A stretch of DNA of 64,000 nt from the IMG/VR virus record IMGVR_UViG_3300042554_002914. One strand, written 5' to 3'. This document shows, piece after piece, positions 3,142-45,901 of the stretch. This DNA comes from a virus (taxonomy: Duplodnaviria > Heunggongvirae > Uroviricota > Caudoviricetes). The number at the start of each line of letters is the position of its first letter. The first letter of the stretch is position 1. The position numbers were made by a program, and so were the translations under genes. Below the pieces are notes generated by a model, which did no database searches, had not been told where the DNA came from, and worked only from the letters and a program-made list of their open reading frames with translations.

Positions 3142-3818
3142 CAGCTTGCCTCCCGACGAAGGTTTGCTAGGTTATCTTCGTAAAAGCGCTTCAGGTCGTC
3201 ATACCTTTTGACAGGCTGACCGTAATAACTGTTGCCGCTATAGGTTGGTAACGATGCCCATTCCGGAGCAAGCTTTGCAATTAGCGTAGGAGTAATCTTT
3301 CCGGAATCAGCGAGACGCAAAGCATTACGCCTTTCGACAAGGTACAAGGCTGCTTGGTCTTGGCTTCCAGGGCCAAAGTCCGAAAGGTTAAGTTTCTTGG
3401 AGGCCTCATCCCAGGTTCCTGGCAAGAACTGATAAGCCCCAGCAGCTGCACTCGCGTAGCTCACTGAGTATTGAATTTGGTTTGGATGTTTTTCTAATGA
3501 GGATACCATGCGCCCCCCAAACAGAATCCGGTAGCCATCTCGGCTATTTTCAGTCCAGGTTCCTTCGGCGAAGCGAATGGTATTTAAAAGGGCTCTGCGT
3601 TCTGGCGTAAGCTCATAGGCAGGGGCCGGTAAAAACTTTGTAGGATCGCAGCCTGTGCAAATGGAGTCGAGTCCTAGTGGTAGACCTGGGGAGAGACCCC
3701 TGATTGCGACTTTCTGAGGTACAGGGTATTCCAGTCTGTTAAACTCAGTAAGTCCGTTCAGCGGGGTTGCAACAGTTCCAACTAGGGAAACAGCCACAAG
3801 TGTAGTGAGGTTGAGCAT
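3141..3818 (-). CDS. Lambda-type lysozyme/muramidase (GH104-like) with N-terminal signal region
   Basis: ALLNTIRFAEGT, AAGAYQFLPGTW, QDQAA, EWASLP. Confidence 0.85.
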   Translation of the reverse strand: MLNLTTLVAVSLVGTVATPLNGLTEFNRLEYPVPQKVAIRGLSPGLPLGLDSICTGCDPTKFLPAPAYELTPERRALLNTIRFAEGTWTENSRDGYRILFGGRMVSSLEKHPNQIQYSVSYASAAAGAYQFLPGTWDEASKKLNLSDFGPGSQDQAALYLVERRNALRLADSGKITPTLIAKLAPEWASLPTYSGNSYYGQPVKRYDDLKRFYEDNLANLRREAS

Positions 3819-4022: not shown

Positions 4023-4073
4023 TGGGGGGGGGGGGGATGGGTGCGCGGGTAGGTGGACGGGTGATGACGATCC

Positions 4074-4259
4074 TTACAGGAAGTCGGAGCCAGGTGTATT
4101 ACCAAAGTCTAAACAATATTCTCTAAACATCCCCTTAACTAATTGCCAATTTTCCCCGCTGGCATCTAACCCGAGTCTCTCAGTGGCTTGGGGGACGTTC
4201 CATTTTGCCCCATATAATTTTCCCATAGCAATTTCATAGTCCCCCTTTGAAAAAGTCAT
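4074..4259 (-). CDS. Hypothetical protein
   Basis: 61 aa ORF coupled to the upstream gene. Confidence 0.55.
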   Translation of the reverse strand: MTFSKGDYEIAMGKLYGAKWNVPQATERLGLDASGENWQLVKGMFREYCLDFGNTPGSDFL

Positions 4260-7029: not shown

Positions 7030-7278
7030 CAAGGGGACCGAAGCCCCCCGCAATGAGTCAGAATGCTATAGCTCAAACGGCTACGGCAGTCCTCTCGAAT
7101 TTGACGATTTTGTTAGCGTCTATGTTGTGCTTATGCAAGCGGCTTTCGGTAATTGGCTTGCTGTCGGTCGATTCCAGAGCGGACCCTCGAAAGGGAAATG
7201 GATCCGGGGCGATTCGAACGCCCGTGTCGCGCAGTAGTGACAACTACCTACACCCAGTTTTGAGCCGTATGGTAGGGC
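7030..7278 (-). ncRNA. ssrA: Circularly permuted (two-piece) tmRNA; tag (A)ANKIVKFERTAVAV*
   Basis: T arm + 3' acceptor CGGATCC-A (to 7199) precedes a 12-nt spacer and 5' acceptor GGGTCCG (7186); G3:U70; GGAATCGAC; UAGAC before resume codon GCT at 7117; stop 7075-7073; outer ends approximate. Confidence 0.92.
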
Positions 7279-7302
7279 TTTAACAATTATTACCCGTTAC
7301 AG

Positions 7303-36548: not shown

Positions 36549-36780
36549 TGGCGGACCGGAGAATTGAACTCCTATTCCGATAGAATTTTGCTAACCTAAG
36601 TTAACAATGCACAGGTATTAATACCTGAGGGGCTATCTCCCAAAGTCTCAAGAATTCTTGAGACGCTTTTTACCCAGATATTCCGGGCACCATGTTGGCA
36701 GTAGATGCTAAGCTACTGGCCTTAGTATTAAAACTGAGGACTTAGACCTGTGCGTCTTACATGGATTTCTCCAACCCGCA
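36549..36780 (-). pseudogene. Disrupted initiator-like tRNA (acceptor halves flank an insertion)
   Basis: 5' TGCGGGT (36780) pairs with 3' GTCCGCC-A (36549); T arm present; anticodon arm absent. Confidence 0.55.
36577..36693 (-). mobile_element. TnpB (IS200/605/607-type) 3' end / right-end remnant, copy 1
   Basis: 116/117 identical to 42404..42520; encodes GARNIWVK. Confidence 0.7.
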
Positions 36781-38651: not shown

Positions 38652-38829
38652 AATCTCTTTTAAGAAACCTGCAAGTAACTTTGAAGAGATCGGGTTTTGT
38701 AATTGCAGTTACTTACCCTGGGGACTCACACCCTTTATACAACTATGGTGCCCACTGTTGTTAATGGGTTATGCTACACGGGTTCACTGCTGGTATGGAA
38801 ACTGCACTGTAAACTCACCATGAGCAAAA

Positions 38830-39524
38830 GACTCAGATGGGATTCGAACCCACAGACCGCTATAAGGACAGTTCTTAAGACACTTTGGAAGAACGGGTGT
38901 AAGGGGCGGGACCCTTCCAATACTTGTTTAAAAACCTTCTTGCTTGGGGGTGGGAGATACCCCAAAGTTGGGATACTTGTTTAACCCACCCTAACTTTTG
39001 AAGGTTTATGCCTGAGTTTTCCAATTGCTCTATCCTTAGGGATACTTCCGTTTGAGTCAGGTTGTTGTATGAGCTTGATCTCTTAGTCTTTTCTCCCAGT
39101 CTTTTGTAGAAGTCTTCCCCATACCTTTCCTTTATGGTCTCGGCTATTTTCTTAGCTAAGAGCGGCCTATTCCTATGGTTGTCTAAGGAGTTTTCCTTGG
39201 CAGTACCCCAATAAAGGTGTTTAACGTTGGAGCAAAAACCATTATGGCAAGCATGGCACAAGTAACCCGTCTTTAACCCGAGAGAGTGGCACGTAGTGTT
39301 AAGGTGCATAGCAAGTAATGCTCTGTTCTCTTTGGAACGTGCTCCTATTTCGAGGCAAGGTTCGGCAAGATCCAGATGACACTGTCTTTGCTCTAGAGAC
39401 AAGCTCATATAGTCTAGAAGGTGTTTTCTTTCCATTGATATGTGGCCAGTGTCTCTGGAGGAACTTTTTGCAAAAGTAAAGTTGGTACGCAAAGCAGCGC
39501 TTTAGGCCGCTAAGCTACGAAGTC
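38830..39524 (-). pseudogene. tRNA-Leu(TAA) split by an HNH gene
   Basis: 5' half GACTTCG..D arm (39524-~39493); 3' half CT TAA GA..T arm..CTGAGTC (38882-38830); acceptor halves pair 6/7. Confidence 0.75.
38875..39435 (-). CDS. HNH (His-Cys-like) homing endonuclease inside the split tRNA
   Basis: LCHACHNGFCSNVKHLYWGTAKEN..D; ATG at 39435; stop codon is the TAA anticodon. Confidence 0.85.
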   Translation of the reverse strand: MERKHLLDYMSLSLEQRQCHLDLAEPCLEIGARSKENRALLAMHLNTTCHSLGLKTGYLCHACHNGFCSNVKHLYWGTAKENSLDNHRNRPLLAKKIAETIKERYGEDFYKRLGEKTKRSSSYNNLTQTEVSLRIEQLENSGINLQKLGWVKQVSQLWGISHPQARRFLNKYWKGPAPYTRSSKVS

Positions 39525-40901: not shown

Positions 40902-41056
40902 TGCCCCAACCAGGGGTTCGAACCTGGAGACAAAAGAATCTATTTTTAACGTGAAAGATACCCGGCAAGGATCACCTTATCAACGTAGGTTCAATACGTC
41001 TATCAGCATTTACTCGTAGATTTGAACCCTAATGCCTGTTCCGATTACTTTGGGAC
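40902..41056 (-). ncRNA. 155-nt tRNA-scaffolded RNA 1
   Basis: Acceptor GTCCCAA/TTGGGGC-A and T arm enclose ~120 nt of nested helices with GTAAATGCTGATAG. Confidence 0.6.
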
Positions 41057-41092
41057 TTTTTTCGTGTTTTGAACATTCCTAACAAAGTTAGG

Positions 41093-41166
41093 CTAGATGA
41101 TTGTTTTTCCAGGTTAAAAGAAATTTTCAGATCGTTGAATCATCTGAGTTTTGCAACTGCAAAACA
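41093..41166 (-). repeat. Structured intergenic repeat S3 (diverged, compensatory changes)
   Basis: AGATGATT/AATCATCT versus AGATGGTT/AACCATCT in S1 and S2. Confidence 0.8.
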
Positions 41167-41174
41167 ATGGCAAA

Positions 41175-41255
41175 TGCCCACCGGGGGACTCGAACCCCCA
41201 CGCCTTTCGGCACATGGGCCTAAACCATGCGTGACTTCCATTCCACCAGGCAGGC
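41175..41255 (-). tRNA. tRNA-Leu(TAG)
   Basis: Loop TT TAG GC; long variable arm. Confidence 0.88.
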
Positions 41256-41286
41256 ATTTTTTCTACGAGTTTTTCGAAGAAAAACA

Positions 41287-41444
41287 TTGAAGTGGAGAGA
41301 CTTGAACTCTCAATGTTAAGATTGCGTCTGGCTGCTACTTAACAGGTGGTTTCAACCATGAGCCAGGAAGTTGCTATTAGCATTTACAACCACATCCGTA
41401 TCGGCTGATTCCACACCCCCGTATACCAGTTCCGGCACACTTCA
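41287..41444 (-). ncRNA. 158-nt tRNA-scaffolded RNA 2 (class II tRNA body with expanded anticodon arm)
   Basis: Perfect acceptor TGAAGTG/CACTTCA-A; D arm CCG-GAACTGGTATA-CGG; perfect T arm; insert contains GTAAATGCTAATAG. Confidence 0.7.
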
Positions 41445-41709: not shown

Positions 41710-41751
41710 ATTATAGGGTCTTGCTTCGGGAAAGTAAAGGACGGTTTGCCG
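41710..41751 (-). promoter_or_regulatory. Class C promoter
   Basis: CGGCAAACCG + TTTACT-17-TATAAT. Confidence 0.7.
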
Positions 41752-41795: not shown

Positions 41796-41881
41796 TGGGT
41801 ATAGACAGGATTCGAACCTGCGATGCCAGAGGCGACCGCTGTACACACGGCCCACCATGCCAGTTTCAGTGAGATATACCC
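41796..41881 (-). tRNA. tRNA-Tyr(GTA), divergent
   Basis: Perfect acceptor and T arm; loop GT GTA CA (C37). Confidence 0.7.
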
Positions 41882-42403: not shown

Positions 42404-42570
42404 CCGATAGAATTTTGCTAACCTAAGTTAACAATGCACAGGTATTAATAGCTGAGGGGCTATCTCCCAAAGTCTCAAGAATTCTTGAGACGCTTTTTAC
42501 CCAGATATTCCGGGCACCATTTATGTCTCTATTGACACAATGGCTATCATCTTGTATAATTTTAGAACCC
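42404..42570 (-). mobile_element. TnpB C-terminal/right-end remnant, copy 2
   Basis: Encodes HCVNRDINGARNI (TnpB C-terminal motif); sits between a class C promoter and its leader; left edge approximate. Confidence 0.75.
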
Positions 42571-42804: not shown

Positions 42805-43578
42805 CTAAGCAACAAAATCCCCTAGCTGAATCCTGCCCTCCGGCACCCATTCTTTGACAATGGCCCTAATTATGGGCTTAGTTGGCCTATACTGGGGGGG
42901 AATATCCGACATGTCCAAACTCTCGGGTCCAACCAAAACCCGTTGGCGTTTAATGTAGGTCCCATGGGTGAATGCCCTAGGGAGTTCTTCCCAAGGTTTC
43001 CCTATTTGTTTCAGCAAGGTTTTCATTTCCTCGCAAGTTACCCCTTGAAGATCCTTATGTGAAAATAAACTCTGAGCATACATTGACACTGAGTTTTTTG
43101 TAGCATCGTTAAGTCTCCACAGGAAATTCTTATAGACGTATTCCAAATTAGGAACGTTCCATACCCTGCAGTCAAATACTGGGTACTGGCCGGACTTCTC
43201 AGGAAGGCAATCAGGTAAGTTCCCTGTGAAAAATGCCCCCGCCATAGATGCCAGAATTGAGGTCAGTTTCTGATATTTGCCCCTAAATAGGAAGTCTCGA
43301 TTGGAGTAATTTCGCTTGTCAAGGTGCCAATATAAGGTGATTTCATCAGATTGGCAATACCCGAGCAAAGCTTCACTTTCGGTAACAAGGTGCCTGGTGG
43401 TAGCAACCATTAGGTTAACGAATCGCTCATCAAACGGCTTTTGGAGGCCATGGGTAAACGAGCTAAAGGCCCTTCCATCGATGCGGCACATTAAAGGGCG
43501 GAAAGGATTTGCGGTCCTGCCTGCCTCTTTTTGCTCTTGTTCTTTTAGGATGTCGCCTAGGGTGTCAGTGTGTGGCAT
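42805..43578 (-). CDS. tRNA(His) guanylyltransferase Thg1-like protein
   Basis: RIDGRAFSSFT..KPFD, YCQSDEITL, K..SILAS, FDCR, WR..DA.KNS. Confidence 0.93.
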   Translation of the reverse strand: MPHTDTLGDILKEQEQKEAGRTANPFRPLMCRIDGRAFSSFTHGLQKPFDERFVNLMVATTRHLVTESEALLGYCQSDEITLYWHLDKRNYSNRDFLFRGKYQKLTSILASMAGAFFTGNLPDCLPEKSGQYPVFDCRVWNVPNLEYVYKNFLWRLNDATKNSVSMYAQSLFSHKDLQGVTCEEMKTLLKQIGKPWEELPRAFTHGTYIKRQRVLVGPESLDMSDIPPQYRPTKPIIRAIVKEWVPEGRIQLGDFVA

Positions 43579-44707: not shown

Positions 44708-45901
44708 CTAAAACCCCTCTTTCTCAGTCTCCCTGAGGGCCACTCCGACCGGGAAAATCGGGACACCACTTGCACTCAGTTCTTGGTATCTGACTGTAAG
44801 GTACTTTGTTGTTGACAATATGTCCTCACGATTTTCGTAAAGAGACCTGCGGTATTCCATATCGCCTTCTGGCACGACAGTAAAGGTTTCAGTCTCAGTG
44901 GCTTTACATACAAAGATTGAAACACCTTTGAACCGGCCACCCCCTTCGATAATGTCAAGGACTTCAAACTCACCGTCCACGAAATCCTTCACCTTTTGCA
45001 ACTGGTTGTTCCGGTGTCCGATATCATACCCGCCAAGGTCGAACCTGACCATCGAACCCTCGTACCCGGATTCAACGAATTGACTGTGGTGAAAAATAAC
45101 GTCAGATGGGGACTCCACCTCGGCAGTAGGGGTTAGTATAACGTGAGATTCCCCTAAGGGAACCAGACTCTTCAAAATTTCAAACCGTTTGGAGAAAGGT
45201 CTCGAAGGATCAACAATGTCGTAGACCCAGTATACAAGCGTGGGGGACAACTCGGGACGAAACTTCTTGATCGCAGTCATTGTCTTTTGTAGCAGAGGGT
45301 TCCCCGGCAGAATGAGTTCTCCGTCCAGGATCACCCCCGGTGGCAATTTTCCGATTTCCTCTTTAATGTGTGCAATACACTCCGGAATAATCAACTTGCC
45401 ACCGCGAGACCACCCCCCACTATTGTCGAGTAGCATCCGTTGTCCATTCAGTTTAGGTTGCACGAATGCGGGCCAGGTTACCTTGTGGCCACGGTCCGAA
45501 AACTTATGGGCTAGCATTGGTAAGGGCAAAATCTCGGGCTCCTGCCCGATTTCAGCATATCCCTTATCAATTTGCTTTTTAAAGTCGCGCTCAATTTCTA
45601 GGTGGGCTTGTTGCTCCGCTGTGGTTGCGTTGGCCCGTCCGACATTTTTGGGATACACACAGTAAGGATCACTAAATTGCAAGGCTGAGCTTGAACCGTC
45701 ATTATTTATTTGCCAGTACGACGACTGTGTGAACCACTGCCCTCGGTCATCACAAAGAACGTGACCTTGCCAAAATTTGACCTTGCCGATGCGAGTTGTT
45801 GACTGAAGGACTGGTGTGCTGTGTGCGATTTTCATTTCTTTTGGGGGGGGGTTTAACTCGCGTTGTGGATCAGTTCCGGGTAAATCATTCGCTGTCATCA
45901 A
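44708..45901 (-). CDS. lig: ATP-dependent DNA ligase with N-terminal WGR-like domain
   Basis: PMLAH, QPKLNGQR, LDGEL, VYDI, YEGSMVR, KVKDF.D.EF, TVRYQ..FPV. Confidence 0.92.
   Translation of the reverse strand: MMTANDLPGTDPQRELNPPPKEMKIAHSTPVLQSTTRIGKVKFWQGHVLCDDRGQWFTQSSYWQINNDGSSSALQFSDPYCVYPKNVGRANATTAEQQAHLEIERDFKKQIDKGYAEIGQEPEILPLPMLAHKFSDRGHKVTWPAFVQPKLNGQRMLLDNSGGWSRGGKLIIPECIAHIKEEIGKLPPGVILDGELILPGNPLLQKTMTAIKKFRPELSPTLVYWVYDIVDPSRPFSKRFEILKSLVPLGESHVILTPTAEVESPSDVIFHHSQFVESGYEGSMVRFDLGGYDIGHRNNQLQKVKDFVDGEFEVLDIIEGGGRFKGVSIFVCKATETETFTVVPEGDMEYRRSLYENREDILSTTKYLTVRYQELSASGVPIFPVGVALRETEKEGF

What the first reader, a model, noticed from the sequence alone, without database searches (positions are those of the whole stretch)
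40902..41444. Two tRNA-scaffolded ~155-nt RNAs displaying the same GUAAAUGCURAUAG loop: candidate new ncRNA class
Seen: both RNAs (40902..41056 and 41287..41444) have tRNA acceptor and T arms, and the second also a class II D arm and a TGTTAAG/CTTAACA variable-arm stem. In both, the anticodon arm is replaced by a long nested hairpin. The bodies are otherwise unrelated, yet both apical regions carry a 13/14-identical motif that I did not notice elsewhere in the window. The inserts are too short for group I introns and lack canonical BHB polarity. Inference: natural tRNA scaffolds, matured by RNase P and CCA-adding enzymes, presenting a protein-binding loop such as a decoy for an anticodon nuclease or other defence protein. 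Alternatively a new tiny tRNA intron.
Basis: partly seen in the sequence, partly recalled or inferred. Interest (0 to 1): 0.8.

Follow-up and report, generated by a model that had tools for sequence, protein, structure and literature searches.

The report
Two tRNA-shaped phage RNAs, shared loop
Two oversized genes inside a cyanophage's tRNA cluster encode tRNA-shaped RNAs that almost certainly cannot read codons; one belongs to an uncatalogued, pseudoknot-braced RNA family conserved from cyanophages to a Pseudomonas phage, and its job is unknown.

Summary
Both elements (minus strand, 41056-40902 and 41444-41287) have a 7-bp acceptor stem and a T arm. A long hairpin sits where the anticodon arm should be, and its tip carries a 13/14-identical word. 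That word occurs only twice in the window and only twice in a 279-kb relative.

Candidate 2 is one of 15 copies of a structured RNA family absent from Rfam. The copies come from freshwater cyanophages (including S-CRM01), a 29-kb viral contig and Pseudomonas podovirus GP100. On these, 96.5% of cells pair and 27 of 49 pairs show compensatory changes. The changes include three in a pseudoknot between the variable-arm loop and the extended arm. The scaffold is class II (Leu/Ser-like) tRNA. The junction AUACGGAU is invariant, and the loop core AAUGCUAAUA survives in three of five lineages.

Candidate 1 has an unrelated body, occurs only in close relatives and has no covariation support.

Neither RNA hides a spliceable tRNA, and neither matches YrlA, tmRNA or the CAGCAAY/Ro60-like class. 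No phage protein co-travels with the family, so a host target is likeliest; a decoy role is untested.

The closest published analogue is T4 rnaC. Earlier agents of this scan noted other pseudoknotted tRNA-Leu-shaped phage RNAs on other DNA.

The parts
41287..41444 (-). Candidate 2: 158-nt class II tRNA-shaped RNA, member of a conserved phage RNA family
   Evidence: The model scores W at 185 bits. One copy per genome in 7 genomes or contigs, 15 copies in all.
41438..41444 (-). Candidate 2 acceptor 5' strand (RNA 1-7); pairs with 41288-41294; discriminator at 41287
   Evidence: helix 1: 6 of 7 pairs have compensatory changes and 92% of cells pair. Pair 1:72 is mismatched in 6 of 15 copies.
41419..41435 (-). 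Candidate 2 D arm (3-bp stem, 11-nt loop with GG); U8, A14, G18G19 and A21 kept
   Evidence: helix 2: 100% paired, with G:C to C:G at 12:24. Levitt pair 15:48 is A:U in most copies and G:C in L118 (alignment A4).
41344..41418 (-). Candidate 2 extended arm in the anticodon position: basal stem (RNA 27-33/96-101), P2 (38-43/87-92), invariant junction AUACGGAU (44-51), P3 (52-59/71-78)
   Evidence: helices 3-5: 93-100% paired, each with compensatory changes. The junction is 8/8 identical in all 15 copies.
41374..41387 (-). Candidate 2 motif GUAAAUGCUAAUAG (apical loop RNA 60-70 plus closing bases)
   Evidence: 13/13 identical with L118, 10/13 with GP100, 9/13 with S-CRM01, 8/13 with type B.
41361..41366 (-). 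Pseudoknot strand 1 (RNA 79-84, CUGGCU) in the 3' internal loop of the arm
   Evidence: helix 6: 97.8% paired. Compensatory changes at 80:116, 81:115 and 82:114. This helix was not part of the model's structure.
41315..41343 (-). Candidate 2 variable arm (stem RNA 102-107/125-130, inner pairs 110-111/120-121); its loop bases 112-117 (41328-41333, AGCCAG) form pseudoknot strand 2
   Evidence: helices 6-8: all 6 pairs of the variable-arm stem have compensatory changes.
41295..41311 (-). Candidate 2 T arm GAGAG-UUCAAGU-CUCUC
   Evidence: helix 9: 4 of 5 pairs compensatory, 98.7% paired.
40902..41056 (-). Candidate 1: 155-nt tRNA-like RNA, found only in close relatives (G003, G005, G006; partial in L086)
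   Evidence: 92% mean column identity and no doubly compensated pair.
40988..41028 (-). Candidate 1 arm in the anticodon position: GGUUCAA/UUGAACC stem, inner helix UCUA/UAGR and apical loop
   Evidence: UCUA/UAGR holds in all copies; the alternative UACG/CGUA is broken in G005 and G006.
41000..41013 (-). Candidate 1 motif GUAAAUGCUGAUAG
   Evidence: identical in all candidate-1 copies.
40949..40986 (-). Candidate 1 hairpin at the variable-arm position: conserved base, a different apex in each genome
   Evidence: There are four different apices. In W three adjacent changes re-pair the base in a shifted register.
40910..40927 (-). Candidate 1 T arm with an 8-nt loop (CCAGG-UUCGAACC-CCUGG)
41710..41738 (-). 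Sigma-70-like promoter (TTTACT-17-TATAAT) upstream of tRNA-Ile, candidate 2, tRNA-Leu(UAG) and candidate 1
   Evidence: a consensus match only. No minus-strand terminator-like site lies between it and candidate 1.

Best explanation
Both genes encode stable, non-decoding tRNA mimics made from the phage's tRNA operon.

Candidate 2 is a class II (Leu/Ser-like) tRNA body. It keeps the acceptor stem, D arm, T arm and elbow contacts. Its anticodon arm is lengthened by two extra helices (P2, P3), about 14 bp. The arm is braced by a 5-6-bp pseudoknot between the variable-arm loop and the arm's internal loop. At the tip of this rigid arm sits an 11-13-nt loop with the conserved core AAUGCUAAUA, which contains a Ser(GCU)-type anticodon-loop heptad.

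Candidate 1 is an unrelated, less canonical tRNA-like scaffold that carries nearly the same loop in the same genomes.

Inferred mechanism: the tRNA-like half gives processing and stability through the host's tRNA enzymes. The arm presents the loop, together with the invariant junction AUACGGAU, to a trans-acting factor. Because no phage protein co-occurs with the family, that factor is most likely a conserved host component that handles tRNA anticodon loops. The RNA would then act as a decoy or sponge for it.

Shown here: the fold, its conservation, its phage distribution and its non-canonical geometry. Inferred only: processing, stability, the binding partner and the decoy role.
For: Fold and selection: on 15 copies, 96.5% of cells pair and 27 of 49 pairs have compensatory changes, with 0 of 500 shuffles as high. 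Slid registers fall to 33-48% paired.

Pseudoknot 79-84:112-117: three pairs are compensated (U:A to G:C, G:C to C:G or A:U, G:C to A:U), although this helix was not in the model used for the alignment.

tRNA core: U8, A14, G18G19, the T loop and a covarying Levitt pair are present. The model's next-best hits are class II tRNAs, with Leu at 35-49 bits and Ser at 25-28 bits.

Conservation sits in the added parts, not the scaffold. Comparing W with GP100 and with L118: junction 8/8 and 8/8; apical loop 10/13 and 13/13; variable-arm stem 4/12 and 2/12; acceptor plus T stems 14/24 and 6/24.

Not a decoding tRNA: ARAGORN and Rfam do not call either gene, and no single deletion gives a consistent tRNA.

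Shared head on unrelated bodies: the word is 13/14 identical (7 of 2000 shuffles), occurs only twice in 279 kb, and candidate 1 is not hit by model R1.

Operon context: promoter-like site at 41738-41710.

No co-travelling phage protein: GP100 shares only PhoH, an HNH endonuclease and a lysozyme with the cyanophages. The Thg1-like and DUF2828 proteins are absent from S-CRM01, GP100 and G007.

The family was not found in 151 cyanobacterial and 151 Pseudomonadales genomes sampled.

Loop core AUGCUAA against the phages' own tRNA-Ser(GCU) anticodon loops UUGCUAA.
Against: The loop is not universally kept: S-CRM01 has four changes and the type-B clade a 2-nt deletion. The head is therefore either dispensable or retargetable.

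The type-B genome G004 has no second RNA carrying its own loop variant.

Two observations weaken the claim of tRNA-type processing. In GP100 the terminal helix continues for 17 perfect base pairs into the flanks. In S-CRM01 the top three acceptor pairs are unpaired.

Candidate 1 rests on four near-identical copies whose flanks are equally conserved, so selection on it is not demonstrated beyond the re-paired hairpin base.

The anticodon-loop resemblance is 6 of 7 nt and could be chance.

The absence of a shared phage protein was judged by blastp on only four genomes, one of them 25% complete.
Confidence: 0.55

Rival explanations
1. They are real tRNAs interrupted by a small, non-canonical intron. 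After excision and ligation (the phage encodes a ligase and a Thg1-like enzyme nearby) a decoding tRNA results.
For: The tRNA-like ends are intact. A Thg1-family protein (42805-43578, E 1e-26) and an ATP-dependent ligase (44708-45901) lie within 4 kb. Candidate 2 contains GUUGAAA next to CCACC, which could be read as a Ser(UGA) loop.
Against: Exhaustive single-segment deletion followed by ARAGORN gives no consistent product. W candidate 2 comes out mostly as 'Asn', G004 as 'Val' or 'Ala', and candidate 1 as 5 'Leu' plus 1 'Glu'. The putative UGA becomes CGA in S-CRM01, UGC in type B and is lost in GP100. The insert is more conserved than the exons and pairs with the variable-arm loop in a covarying pseudoknot. 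There is no group I or other ribozyme hit in Rfam. S-CRM01 and GP100 lack the Thg1-like gene.
Confidence: 0.06
2. They are partner RNAs (Y-RNA analogues) of the phage's Ro60-like DUF2828/vWA protein, like the CAGCAAY-module tRNA-shaped RNAs encoded elsewhere in this genome.
For: The relative G003 encodes a DUF2828/DUF7788 protein followed by tRNA-shaped RNAs and hairpins carrying CAGCAA(C/U). One such hairpin (UCUA-G-UUAUGCUU-UAGG) resembles candidate 1's UCUA-...AUGCUGA-UAGR. Candidate 2's P3 strand AGCAACCUCCU (type B) matches the CAGCAACCUCCU string of the 117-nt RNA in G005.
Against: Neither candidate has CAGCAAY. In candidate 2 the similar string is a covarying helix strand, not the unpaired box that follows a stem as in the CAGCAAY modules. 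The candidates lie about 65 kb from the protein gene. The candidate-2 family occurs in S-CRM01 and GP100, which have no DUF2828 homolog by blastp. Rfam YrlA gives no hit.
Confidence: 0.08
3. They are dead tRNA genes: pseudogenes disrupted by junk or mobile-element remnants that happen to share a short word.
For: Candidate 1 is clade-restricted, has a weak D stem, A8 and an 8-nt T loop, and its flanks are as conserved as the gene itself.
Against: For candidate 2 this is excluded. Flanks are unalignable between lineages while the RNA keeps 63-80% identity, 27 pairs are compensated and the junction is invariant. For candidate 1, three adjacent substitutions in W restore pairing of the hairpin base, and the motif is identical in all copies. 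The motif matched no other tRNA-like context among 76 further sites in IMG/VR and GTDB genomes apart from family members, so it is not a repeat-element end.
Confidence: 0.05
4. The conserved junction, pseudoknot and loop form a ligand-binding or catalytic pocket. The RNA would be a riboswitch-like sensor or ribozyme on a tRNA chassis rather than a decoy.
For: An invariant 8-nt junction (AUACGGAU), a near-invariant variable-arm loop and a pseudoknot enclosing them are typical of RNAs with a tertiary pocket.
Against: There is no downstream gene in a consistent position to regulate: neighbours differ in W, G004, S-CRM01 and GP100. No known ribozyme or riboswitch family matches. No candidate cleavage site or ligand emerges from the sequence.
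Confidence: 0.1
5. They are miniature tmRNA-like molecules. GUAAAU|GCU would be a resume-codon context followed by a short tag ORF.
For: From GCU, W candidate 2 reads ANSNFLAHG* and candidate 1 reads ADRRIEPTLIR* (read directly from the sequence). The genome invests in translation rescue, with a tmRNA at 7033-7295.
Against: The stop codon is not conserved (UGA becomes UGC, CGA, or no stop in GP100). Type B lacks the GCU. The 'ORF' runs through the covarying P3 and P2 strands. G3:U70 is present in only 2 of 15 copies. No tmRNA model hits.
Confidence: 0.02

Closest known systems
Phage T4 rnaC (species 1 RNA, 139 nt) and rnaD, stable RNAs of the T4 tRNA cluster
   Same: They are encoded inside a T4-like phage's tRNA cluster. 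In the predicted (MFE) fold, rnaC has an acceptor-like terminal stem and a canonical T arm (CCGGG-UUCGAAU-CCCGG). It also has a long hairpin where the anticodon arm would be and a second hairpin at the variable-arm position. Their function is still unknown (PMC9697503).
   Different: There is no sequence or model similarity: R1 does not hit rnaC. rnaC has no clear D arm, none of the conserved motifs (AUACGGAU, AAUGCUAAUA) and no evident variable-loop pseudoknot. The similarity is analogy of design, not shown homology.
YrlA-type bacterial and phage Y RNAs with Ro60/Rsr (Chen et al. 2014, PMC4201824; Rfam RF02553)
   Same: Non-decoding RNAs with a tRNA-like module (D and T arms, tRNA modifications, substrates of tRNA enzymes), also found in phages.
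   Different: In YrlA the RNA termini form the Ro-binding stem and the tRNA-like domain is distal. YrlA carries GNCGAA(N0-1)G and lies next to rsr. Here the termini form the acceptor stem, that motif is absent, no rsr-like gene is adjacent, and RF02553 gives no hit.
Bacterial and phage class II tRNA-Leu and tRNA-Ser
   Same: Candidate 2 shares the 7-bp acceptor, a 3-bp D stem with a Leu-like loop (GAAYUGGUAUA), a long variable arm, the T arm and the Levitt pair. Class II tRNAs are the model's next-best hits. The apex contains AUGCUAA, against UUGCUAA in the phages' tRNA-Ser(GCU).
   Different: The anticodon arm is about 14 bp longer, its loop is 11-13 nt rather than 7, and the variable-arm loop is locked to the arm by a pseudoknot. 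This geometry is incompatible with ribosomal decoding, an inference from standard tRNA dimensions.
tmRNA
   Same: A tRNA-like domain joined to pseudoknotted extra structure, processed like tRNA.
   Different: There is no conserved tag ORF or stop, no general G3:U70, a full D arm is present, the size is 155 nt against more than 250, and no tmRNA model hits.
Unpublished notes of this scan: 'phage tRNA-Leu-shaped RNAs carrying a pseudoknot domain' (e1-3509179, e1-5357628, e1-5360867) and the CAGCAAY/Ro60-like class (e1-1844065)
   Same: The same theme: class II tRNA tops with a covarying pseudoknotted domain in place of a decoding arm, found in phages and absent from the literature searched.
   Different: The CAGCAAY module is absent here.

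Membership tests
Canonical decoding tRNA (Rfam RF00005 / ARAGORN) | Detected by tRNA models; 5-bp anticodon stem with a 7-nt loop at the standard distance from the elbow | tested here: not met
   No ARAGORN call with or without -i. No RF00005 hit even at E<=10. The arm is about 14 bp longer, with an 11-13-nt (candidate 2) or 14-nt (candidate 1) loop.
Canonical decoding tRNA (Rfam RF00005 / ARAGORN) | 7-bp acceptor stem, T arm with UUCRANY loop, D-loop GG, U8/A14, Levitt pair | tested here: met
   Met for candidate 2 with covariation. Only partly met for candidate 1, which has A8, C14, an 8-nt T loop and a weak D stem.
Intron-containing tRNA (group I or protein-spliced) | Removing one contiguous segment yields a canonical tRNA with the same anticodon in homologs | tested here: not met
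   All deletions leaving 70-95 nt were tested with ARAGORN. There were few calls and they disagree between homologs.
Intron-containing tRNA (group I or protein-spliced) | Insert has a group I core or another self-splicing or self-cleaving fold | tested here: not met
   No intron or ribozyme family appears in Rfam searches. The insert is about 64 nt.
YrlA / Y RNA (RF02553) | GNCGAA(N0-1)G Rsr-binding motif near the 5' end; termini form the Ro-binding stem; gene adjacent to Ro60/rsr (PMC4201824) | tested here: not met
   No RF02553 hit. The motif is absent or not conserved (alignments A4 and A5). The termini form the acceptor stem. The neighbours are tRNAs.
CAGCAAY-module tRNA-shaped RNAs beside the DUF2828 protein (this scan's earlier notes) | Stem or hairpin followed by unpaired CAGCAA(C/U) | tested here: not met
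   The module is seen in G003 and G005, but neither candidate has it. Candidate 2's UAGCAAC is a paired P3 strand.
CAGCAAY-module tRNA-shaped RNAs beside the DUF2828 protein (this scan's earlier notes) | Co-occurrence with a DUF2828/Ro60-like gene | tested here: not met
   DUF2828 is present in G003 but has no blastp homolog in S-CRM01, GP100 or G007, all of which carry the candidate-2 family. G007 is only 25% complete.
tmRNA | Alanine identity pair G3:U70, a resume codon with a conserved tag ORF and stop, a hit to tmRNA models | tested here: not met
   G3:U70 is present in 2 of 15 copies. ORF and stop are not conserved. No tmRNA hit falls at these coordinates.
T4 rnaC (species 1 RNA) | Sequence or structure homology to T4 rnaC | tested here: not met
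   R1 gives no hit on rnaC in L078. Only the arrangement of helices is alike.
Candidate-2 family as defined here (model R1) | Class II tRNA scaffold, basal stem-P2-P3 arm, invariant AUACGGAU junction, pseudoknot between variable loop and arm | tested here: met
   Window copy scores 185 bits. Other copies score 114.6-187.6 bits against 49 bits or less for ordinary tRNAs. Candidate 1 does not belong.
tRNA-type maturation (RNase P, CCA addition) and aminoacylation | 5' end at +1, 3' CCA added, charged by LeuRS or SerRS | not testable with these tools
   CCA is not encoded in any copy.

The most novel reading that the evidence does not exclude
The candidate-2 family is a new class of phage tRNA mimic. 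It holds an enlarged Ser(GCU)-type anticodon loop at the end of a pseudoknot-braced arm, out of reach of the ribosome. There it captures or neutralises a conserved bacterial factor that acts on tRNA anticodon loops, such as an anticodon nuclease of a defence system or a modification enzyme. In one cyanophage clade the same 'head' has been installed on a second, unrelated tRNA-like chassis (candidate 1). That would show that the head is a portable functional module.
Probability: 0.2. Interest if true: 0.85.

Novelty: new variant of a known kind. Interest (0 to 1): 0.62.

Why it matters
Phage tRNA clusters are usually read as codon-usage or anti-defence spare parts, and genes that tRNA finders skip are ignored. 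Here one skipped gene belongs to a well-folded RNA family with riboswitch-grade covariation. It is shared by phages as different as a 178-280-kb cyanomyovirus group and a 50-kb Pseudomonas podovirus, and it is unannotated in both cultured genomes (S-CRM01, GP100).

It joins T4 rnaC, whose role is unknown after fifty years, and YrlA as evidence that phages repeatedly turn the tRNA chassis into something other than an adaptor. Because S-CRM01 and GP100 are cultured, the family offers a tractable way to ask what such RNAs do.

A model for it would also improve the annotation of viral metagenomes.

Tried and rejected
- **Intron reading.** ARAGORN -i and an exhaustive deletion scan gave no consistent tRNA.
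- **Rfam.** Searches at gathering and permissive thresholds returned only noise at these coordinates.
- **tmRNA-like ORF reading.** Rejected on non-conservation.
- **Alternative pairing AGCC(39-42):GGCU(81-84).** Gives a C.A mismatch in 8 of 15 copies, whereas the pseudoknot partner compensates.
- **Candidate 1 inner helix UACG/CGUA.** Broken in two copies; UCUA/UAGR is kept.
- **Antisense target of the loop.** None in the window or in 279-kb G003 at 2 mismatches or fewer.
- **A second RNA with the type-B loop in G004.** None found.
- **Mobile-element origin.** The 117-bp repeats do not overlap the candidates, and 74 of the 76 further motif sites lack any tRNA context. The other two are candidate-2 copies: G006 and the newly found L118.
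- **IMG/VR pattern scans.** Several returned only chance hits.
- **BLAST against GenBank phages.** Candidate 1 gave no match.
- **Shared phage partner protein.** None beyond PhoH, an HNH endonuclease and a lysozyme. The Thg1-like and DUF2828 proteins do not co-occur with the family.
- **Host copies.** None in 302 sampled genomes.
- **16S rRNA 690-loop resemblance.** Recalled from memory only; my own estimate is that chance alone would give one or two such matches in rRNA-length sequence, so I dropped it.
- **Not available.** The S-CRM01 genome paper is not held. The supplements of the IMG/VR structured-RNA catalogue are not held.
Full report
**What is there.** The window carries a dense minus-strand tRNA array: 19 ARAGORN genes and a cyanobacterial-type tmRNA. 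The two elements are real.

- Candidate 1 (41056..40902): a 7-bp acceptor stem (GUCCCAA/UUGGGGC), discriminator A, and a T arm whose loop has 8 rather than 7 bases.
- Candidate 2 (41444..41287): a 7-bp acceptor stem, U8, a 3-bp D stem with an 11-nt GG-containing loop, a 6-bp variable-arm stem and a textbook T arm.
- Neither is called by ARAGORN, with or without its intron option, or by the Rfam tRNA model even at E<=10.
- The word GTAAATGCTRATAG matches exactly only at 41000-41013 and 41374-41387. In a complete 279-kb relative it also occurs exactly twice, and never in antisense.
- A 13/14 word shared by two such RNAs arises in 7 of 2000 dinucleotide-preserving shuffles.
- Single-sequence folding energies are unremarkable (z = -1.4 and -1.1), so everything below rests on comparison.

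**Candidate 2 belongs to a conserved family.** BLAST and pattern scans recovered copies from several sources:

- Synechococcus phage S-CRM01, in an unannotated gap between tRNA-Ala and tRNA-Val.
- Four large IMG/VR contigs, G003 to G006.
- Eight lake-metagenome contigs.
- A 29-kb viral contig, L118.
- Pseudomonas phage GP100, a 50.5-kb member of the Zobellviridae, again unannotated.

A covariance model built from the first twelve copies scores every member at 114.6-187.6 bits. It finds exactly one copy per genome. Its next-best hits are ordinary class II tRNAs: tRNA-Leu at 35-49 bits and tRNA-Ser at 25-28 bits. The scaffold is therefore class II tRNA-derived. Candidate 1 is not hit at all, which confirms that the two bodies are unrelated.

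**The fold.** On the 15-copy alignment, 96.5% of cells form standard pairs. 27 of 49 pairs carry compensatory double changes, and 0 of 500 shuffles reach either value. Sliding the 3' partners by one to three columns drops pairing to 33-48%. The model comprises:

- acceptor stem (1-7:151-157) and D stem (10-12:24-26);
- a basal stem at the anticodon position (27-33:96-101), then P2 (38-43:87-92);
- an internal loop whose 5' strand AUACGGAU (44-51) is invariant in all 15 copies;
- P3 (52-59:71-78) closed by an 11-13-nt apical loop;
- a variable arm (102-107:125-130 plus 110-111:120-121) and the T arm (134-138:146-150).

A sixth long-range helix pairs the 3' strand of the internal loop (79-84) with the variable-arm loop (112-117). 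In GP100 three of its pairs are fully compensated relative to the window: U:A to G:C, G:C to C:G and G:C to A:U. The G:C/A:U split at 81:115 also separates the cyanophage clades. This pseudoknot was not part of the model used to build the alignment.

The Levitt pair covaries as well, A15:U48 in most copies and G15:C48 in L118. This argues for a true L-shaped tRNA core.

Conservation is concentrated in the added parts. Comparing W with GP100 and with L118 gives: junction 8/8 and 8/8; apical loop 10/13 and 13/13; variable-arm stem 4/12 and 2/12; acceptor plus T stems 14/24 and 6/24.

**The motif.** The loop core AAUGCUAAUA is identical in the window's clade, in L118 and in GP100. These are the three lineages whose scaffolds differ most. 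It is changed at four positions in S-CRM01 and shortened by two bases in the type-B clade. Part of it is paired: the flanking G and G in candidate 2, and UAG in candidate 1's UCUA/UAGR helix. The core contains AUGCUAA. The phages' own tRNA-Ser(GCU) anticodon loops read UUGCUAA. That is compatible with an enlarged anticodon loop pushed outward by the inserted helices, but a 7-nt likeness is weak evidence.

**Candidate 1.** It occurs only in the window's close relatives: G003, G005 and G006, plus a truncated copy in L086. At 92% column identity, and with equally conserved flanks, it offers no doubly compensated pair. Three observations are worth recording:

- The inner helix that survives all copies is UCUA/UAGR, not UACG/CGUA.
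- The hairpin at the variable-arm position has a different apex in each genome.
- In W, three adjacent substitutions re-pair that hairpin's base in a shifted register, which suggests the stem is maintained.

Its D stem is weak, and it has A8 and an 8-nt T loop. Every genome that has candidate 1 also has the type-A candidate 2, and the two loops differ only at the R position. The type-B genome has no second RNA carrying its own loop variant.

**What it is not.**

- *A spliced tRNA.* No single deletion yields a consistent tRNA. The apparent UGA is not conserved. The insert is the best-conserved part and is knotted to the variable arm.
- *YrlA.* RF02553 gives no hit, the GNCGAA motif is absent and the topology differs (PMC4201824).
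- *The CAGCAAY class.* I confirmed that G003 encodes a DUF2828/DUF7788-vWA protein followed by tRNA-shaped RNAs and hairpins with an unpaired CAGCAA(C/U) box, as earlier notes of this scan said. Candidates 1 and 2 lack the box. In addition, S-CRM01 and GP100 carry the candidate-2 family without any DUF2828 homolog.
- *tmRNA-like.* The short ORFs that start at the motif's GCU are not conserved, and they run through covarying helices.
- *A decayed element.* For candidate 2 the flanks are unalignable between lineages while the RNA is kept. The motif was found in no other tRNA-like context among 76 further sites in IMG/VR and GTDB genomes.

**How it probably works.** A sigma-70-like promoter at 41738-41710 precedes tRNA-Ile, candidate 2, tRNA-Leu(UAG) and candidate 1, with no minus-strand terminator between. 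The RNAs are therefore probably cut out of a tRNA precursor. Their intact acceptor, T-arm and elbow module is what RNase P, 3' processing and the CCA-adding enzyme recognise (established tRNA biology; inference here). The lengthened, braced arm puts the loop far beyond the reach of a ribosomal A site, so decoding is implausible.

GP100 and the cyanophages share no detectable protein beyond PhoH, an HNH endonuclease and a lysozyme. The Thg1-like and DUF2828 genes do not co-occur with the family. The family was not found in 302 sampled host-lineage genomes. The simplest reading is a phage RNA that engages a conserved host factor through its junction and loop. A decoy for an enzyme that handles tRNA anticodon loops is my preferred guess, at about 20-25%.

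Two cautions apply to the claim of tRNA-type processing. In GP100 the terminal helix continues for 17 perfect pairs into the flanks and follows a terminator-like hairpin. In S-CRM01 the top three acceptor pairs are open.

**Known relatives and novelty.** The closest published analogue is T4 rnaC. It lies in the T4 tRNA cluster. In its predicted fold it has an acceptor-like stem, a long hairpin at the anticodon position, a second hairpin at the variable-arm position and a canonical T arm. It is still of unknown function (PMC9697503). No homology is detectable between it and these RNAs.

The family is absent from Rfam 15, and I found no description in the papers searched. The S-CRM01 paper and the IMG/VR catalogue's supplements could not be read. 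Earlier agents of this scan reported other pseudoknotted tRNA-Leu-shaped phage RNAs on other DNA. I could not test whether those are related.

I class the finding as a new variant of a known kind. The fold and conservation of candidate 2 are solid. Candidate 1 is plausible but thinly supported. The function of both is open.

Noticed in passing
L187:2460-2650 (Pseudomonas phage GP100, LT986460.2 about 4060-4250): GP100's copy of the family is not in a tRNA array. Its acceptor helix extends to 17 perfect base pairs with leader and trailer (CUUUAGUGUGUGUACUG / CAGUACACACACUAAAG), and it follows a terminator-like hairpin. This hints at a different maturation route, for example a double-strand-specific RNase.
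   Followed up: partly
L001:2988-3144 (S-CRM01, NC_015569 135447-135603): In S-CRM01 the first three acceptor pairs (1:72, 2:71, 3:70) are all mismatched, while the lower four are compensated. This is the pattern of substrates for 5'-end editing by Thg1-like polymerases, yet S-CRM01 has no Thg1-like homolog by blastp. Pair 1:72 is also mismatched in 6 of 15 family members.
   Followed up: partly
window 42805-43578 (-) and 44708-45901 (-): A Thg1-family protein (PF04446, E 1e-26) and an ATP-dependent ligase sit just upstream of the tRNA array. Both are conserved in G003 (95-96% identity).
   Followed up: partly
L080:13413-13571 (-), G004: A 159-nt gene that looks like a complete tRNA (CAU anticodon position, A33) with about 86 nt of structured sequence in the variable region. 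Many different deletions restore an ARAGORN tRNA-Met call.
   Followed up: partly
L080:12883-13001 (-) and L082:17342-17458 (-): A homologous 119/117-nt pair of tRNA-shaped RNAs with canonical acceptor, D and T arms. A hairpin-containing insert follows (C/G)(A/G)GCAAC and ends in the conserved CGGUAAAGGACCGUAACGCUGGAGGG. They probably belong to the CAGCAAY class. A further 123-nt tRNA-like element lies at L080:15254-15376 (-).
   Followed up: no
L100:9850-10440 (-), G003 about 193.8-194.4 kb: Downstream of the 511-aa DUF2828/DUF7788-vWA protein (L100:10443-11978) lie at least five elements carrying CAGCAA(C/U), two of them tRNA-shaped. This confirms the earlier scan notes at the level of sequence.
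   Followed up: partly
L118:3983-4126 (-) and about 3380-3490 (-): The 29-kb contig with the divergent family member also has two further class-II-like tRNA-shaped RNAs (about 144 and 107 nt) with other inserts. One contains GGUCGCAACC, like the P2 region of type-B candidate 2.
   Followed up: no
window 41797-41881 (-): An 85-nt tRNA-like gene missed by ARAGORN. Its only Rfam hit is a weak tRNA-Sec match (20.7 bits, E 0.46). The anticodon loop looks aberrant.
   Followed up: no
window 38829-39018 (-): A T arm (GUGGG-UUCGAAU-CCCAU) with a matching 7-bp acceptor partner 190 nt upstream, overlapping an ORF. It looks like a tRNA gene split by an inserted gene, as another first-stage note says.
   Followed up: no
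window 36577-36693 and 42404-42520: Two 117-nt direct repeats at 99% identity flank the array region (family D1). Three copies of a 63-nt repeat lie in tRNA trailers, one of them (41105-41167) between tRNA-Leu and candidate 1.
   Followed up: no
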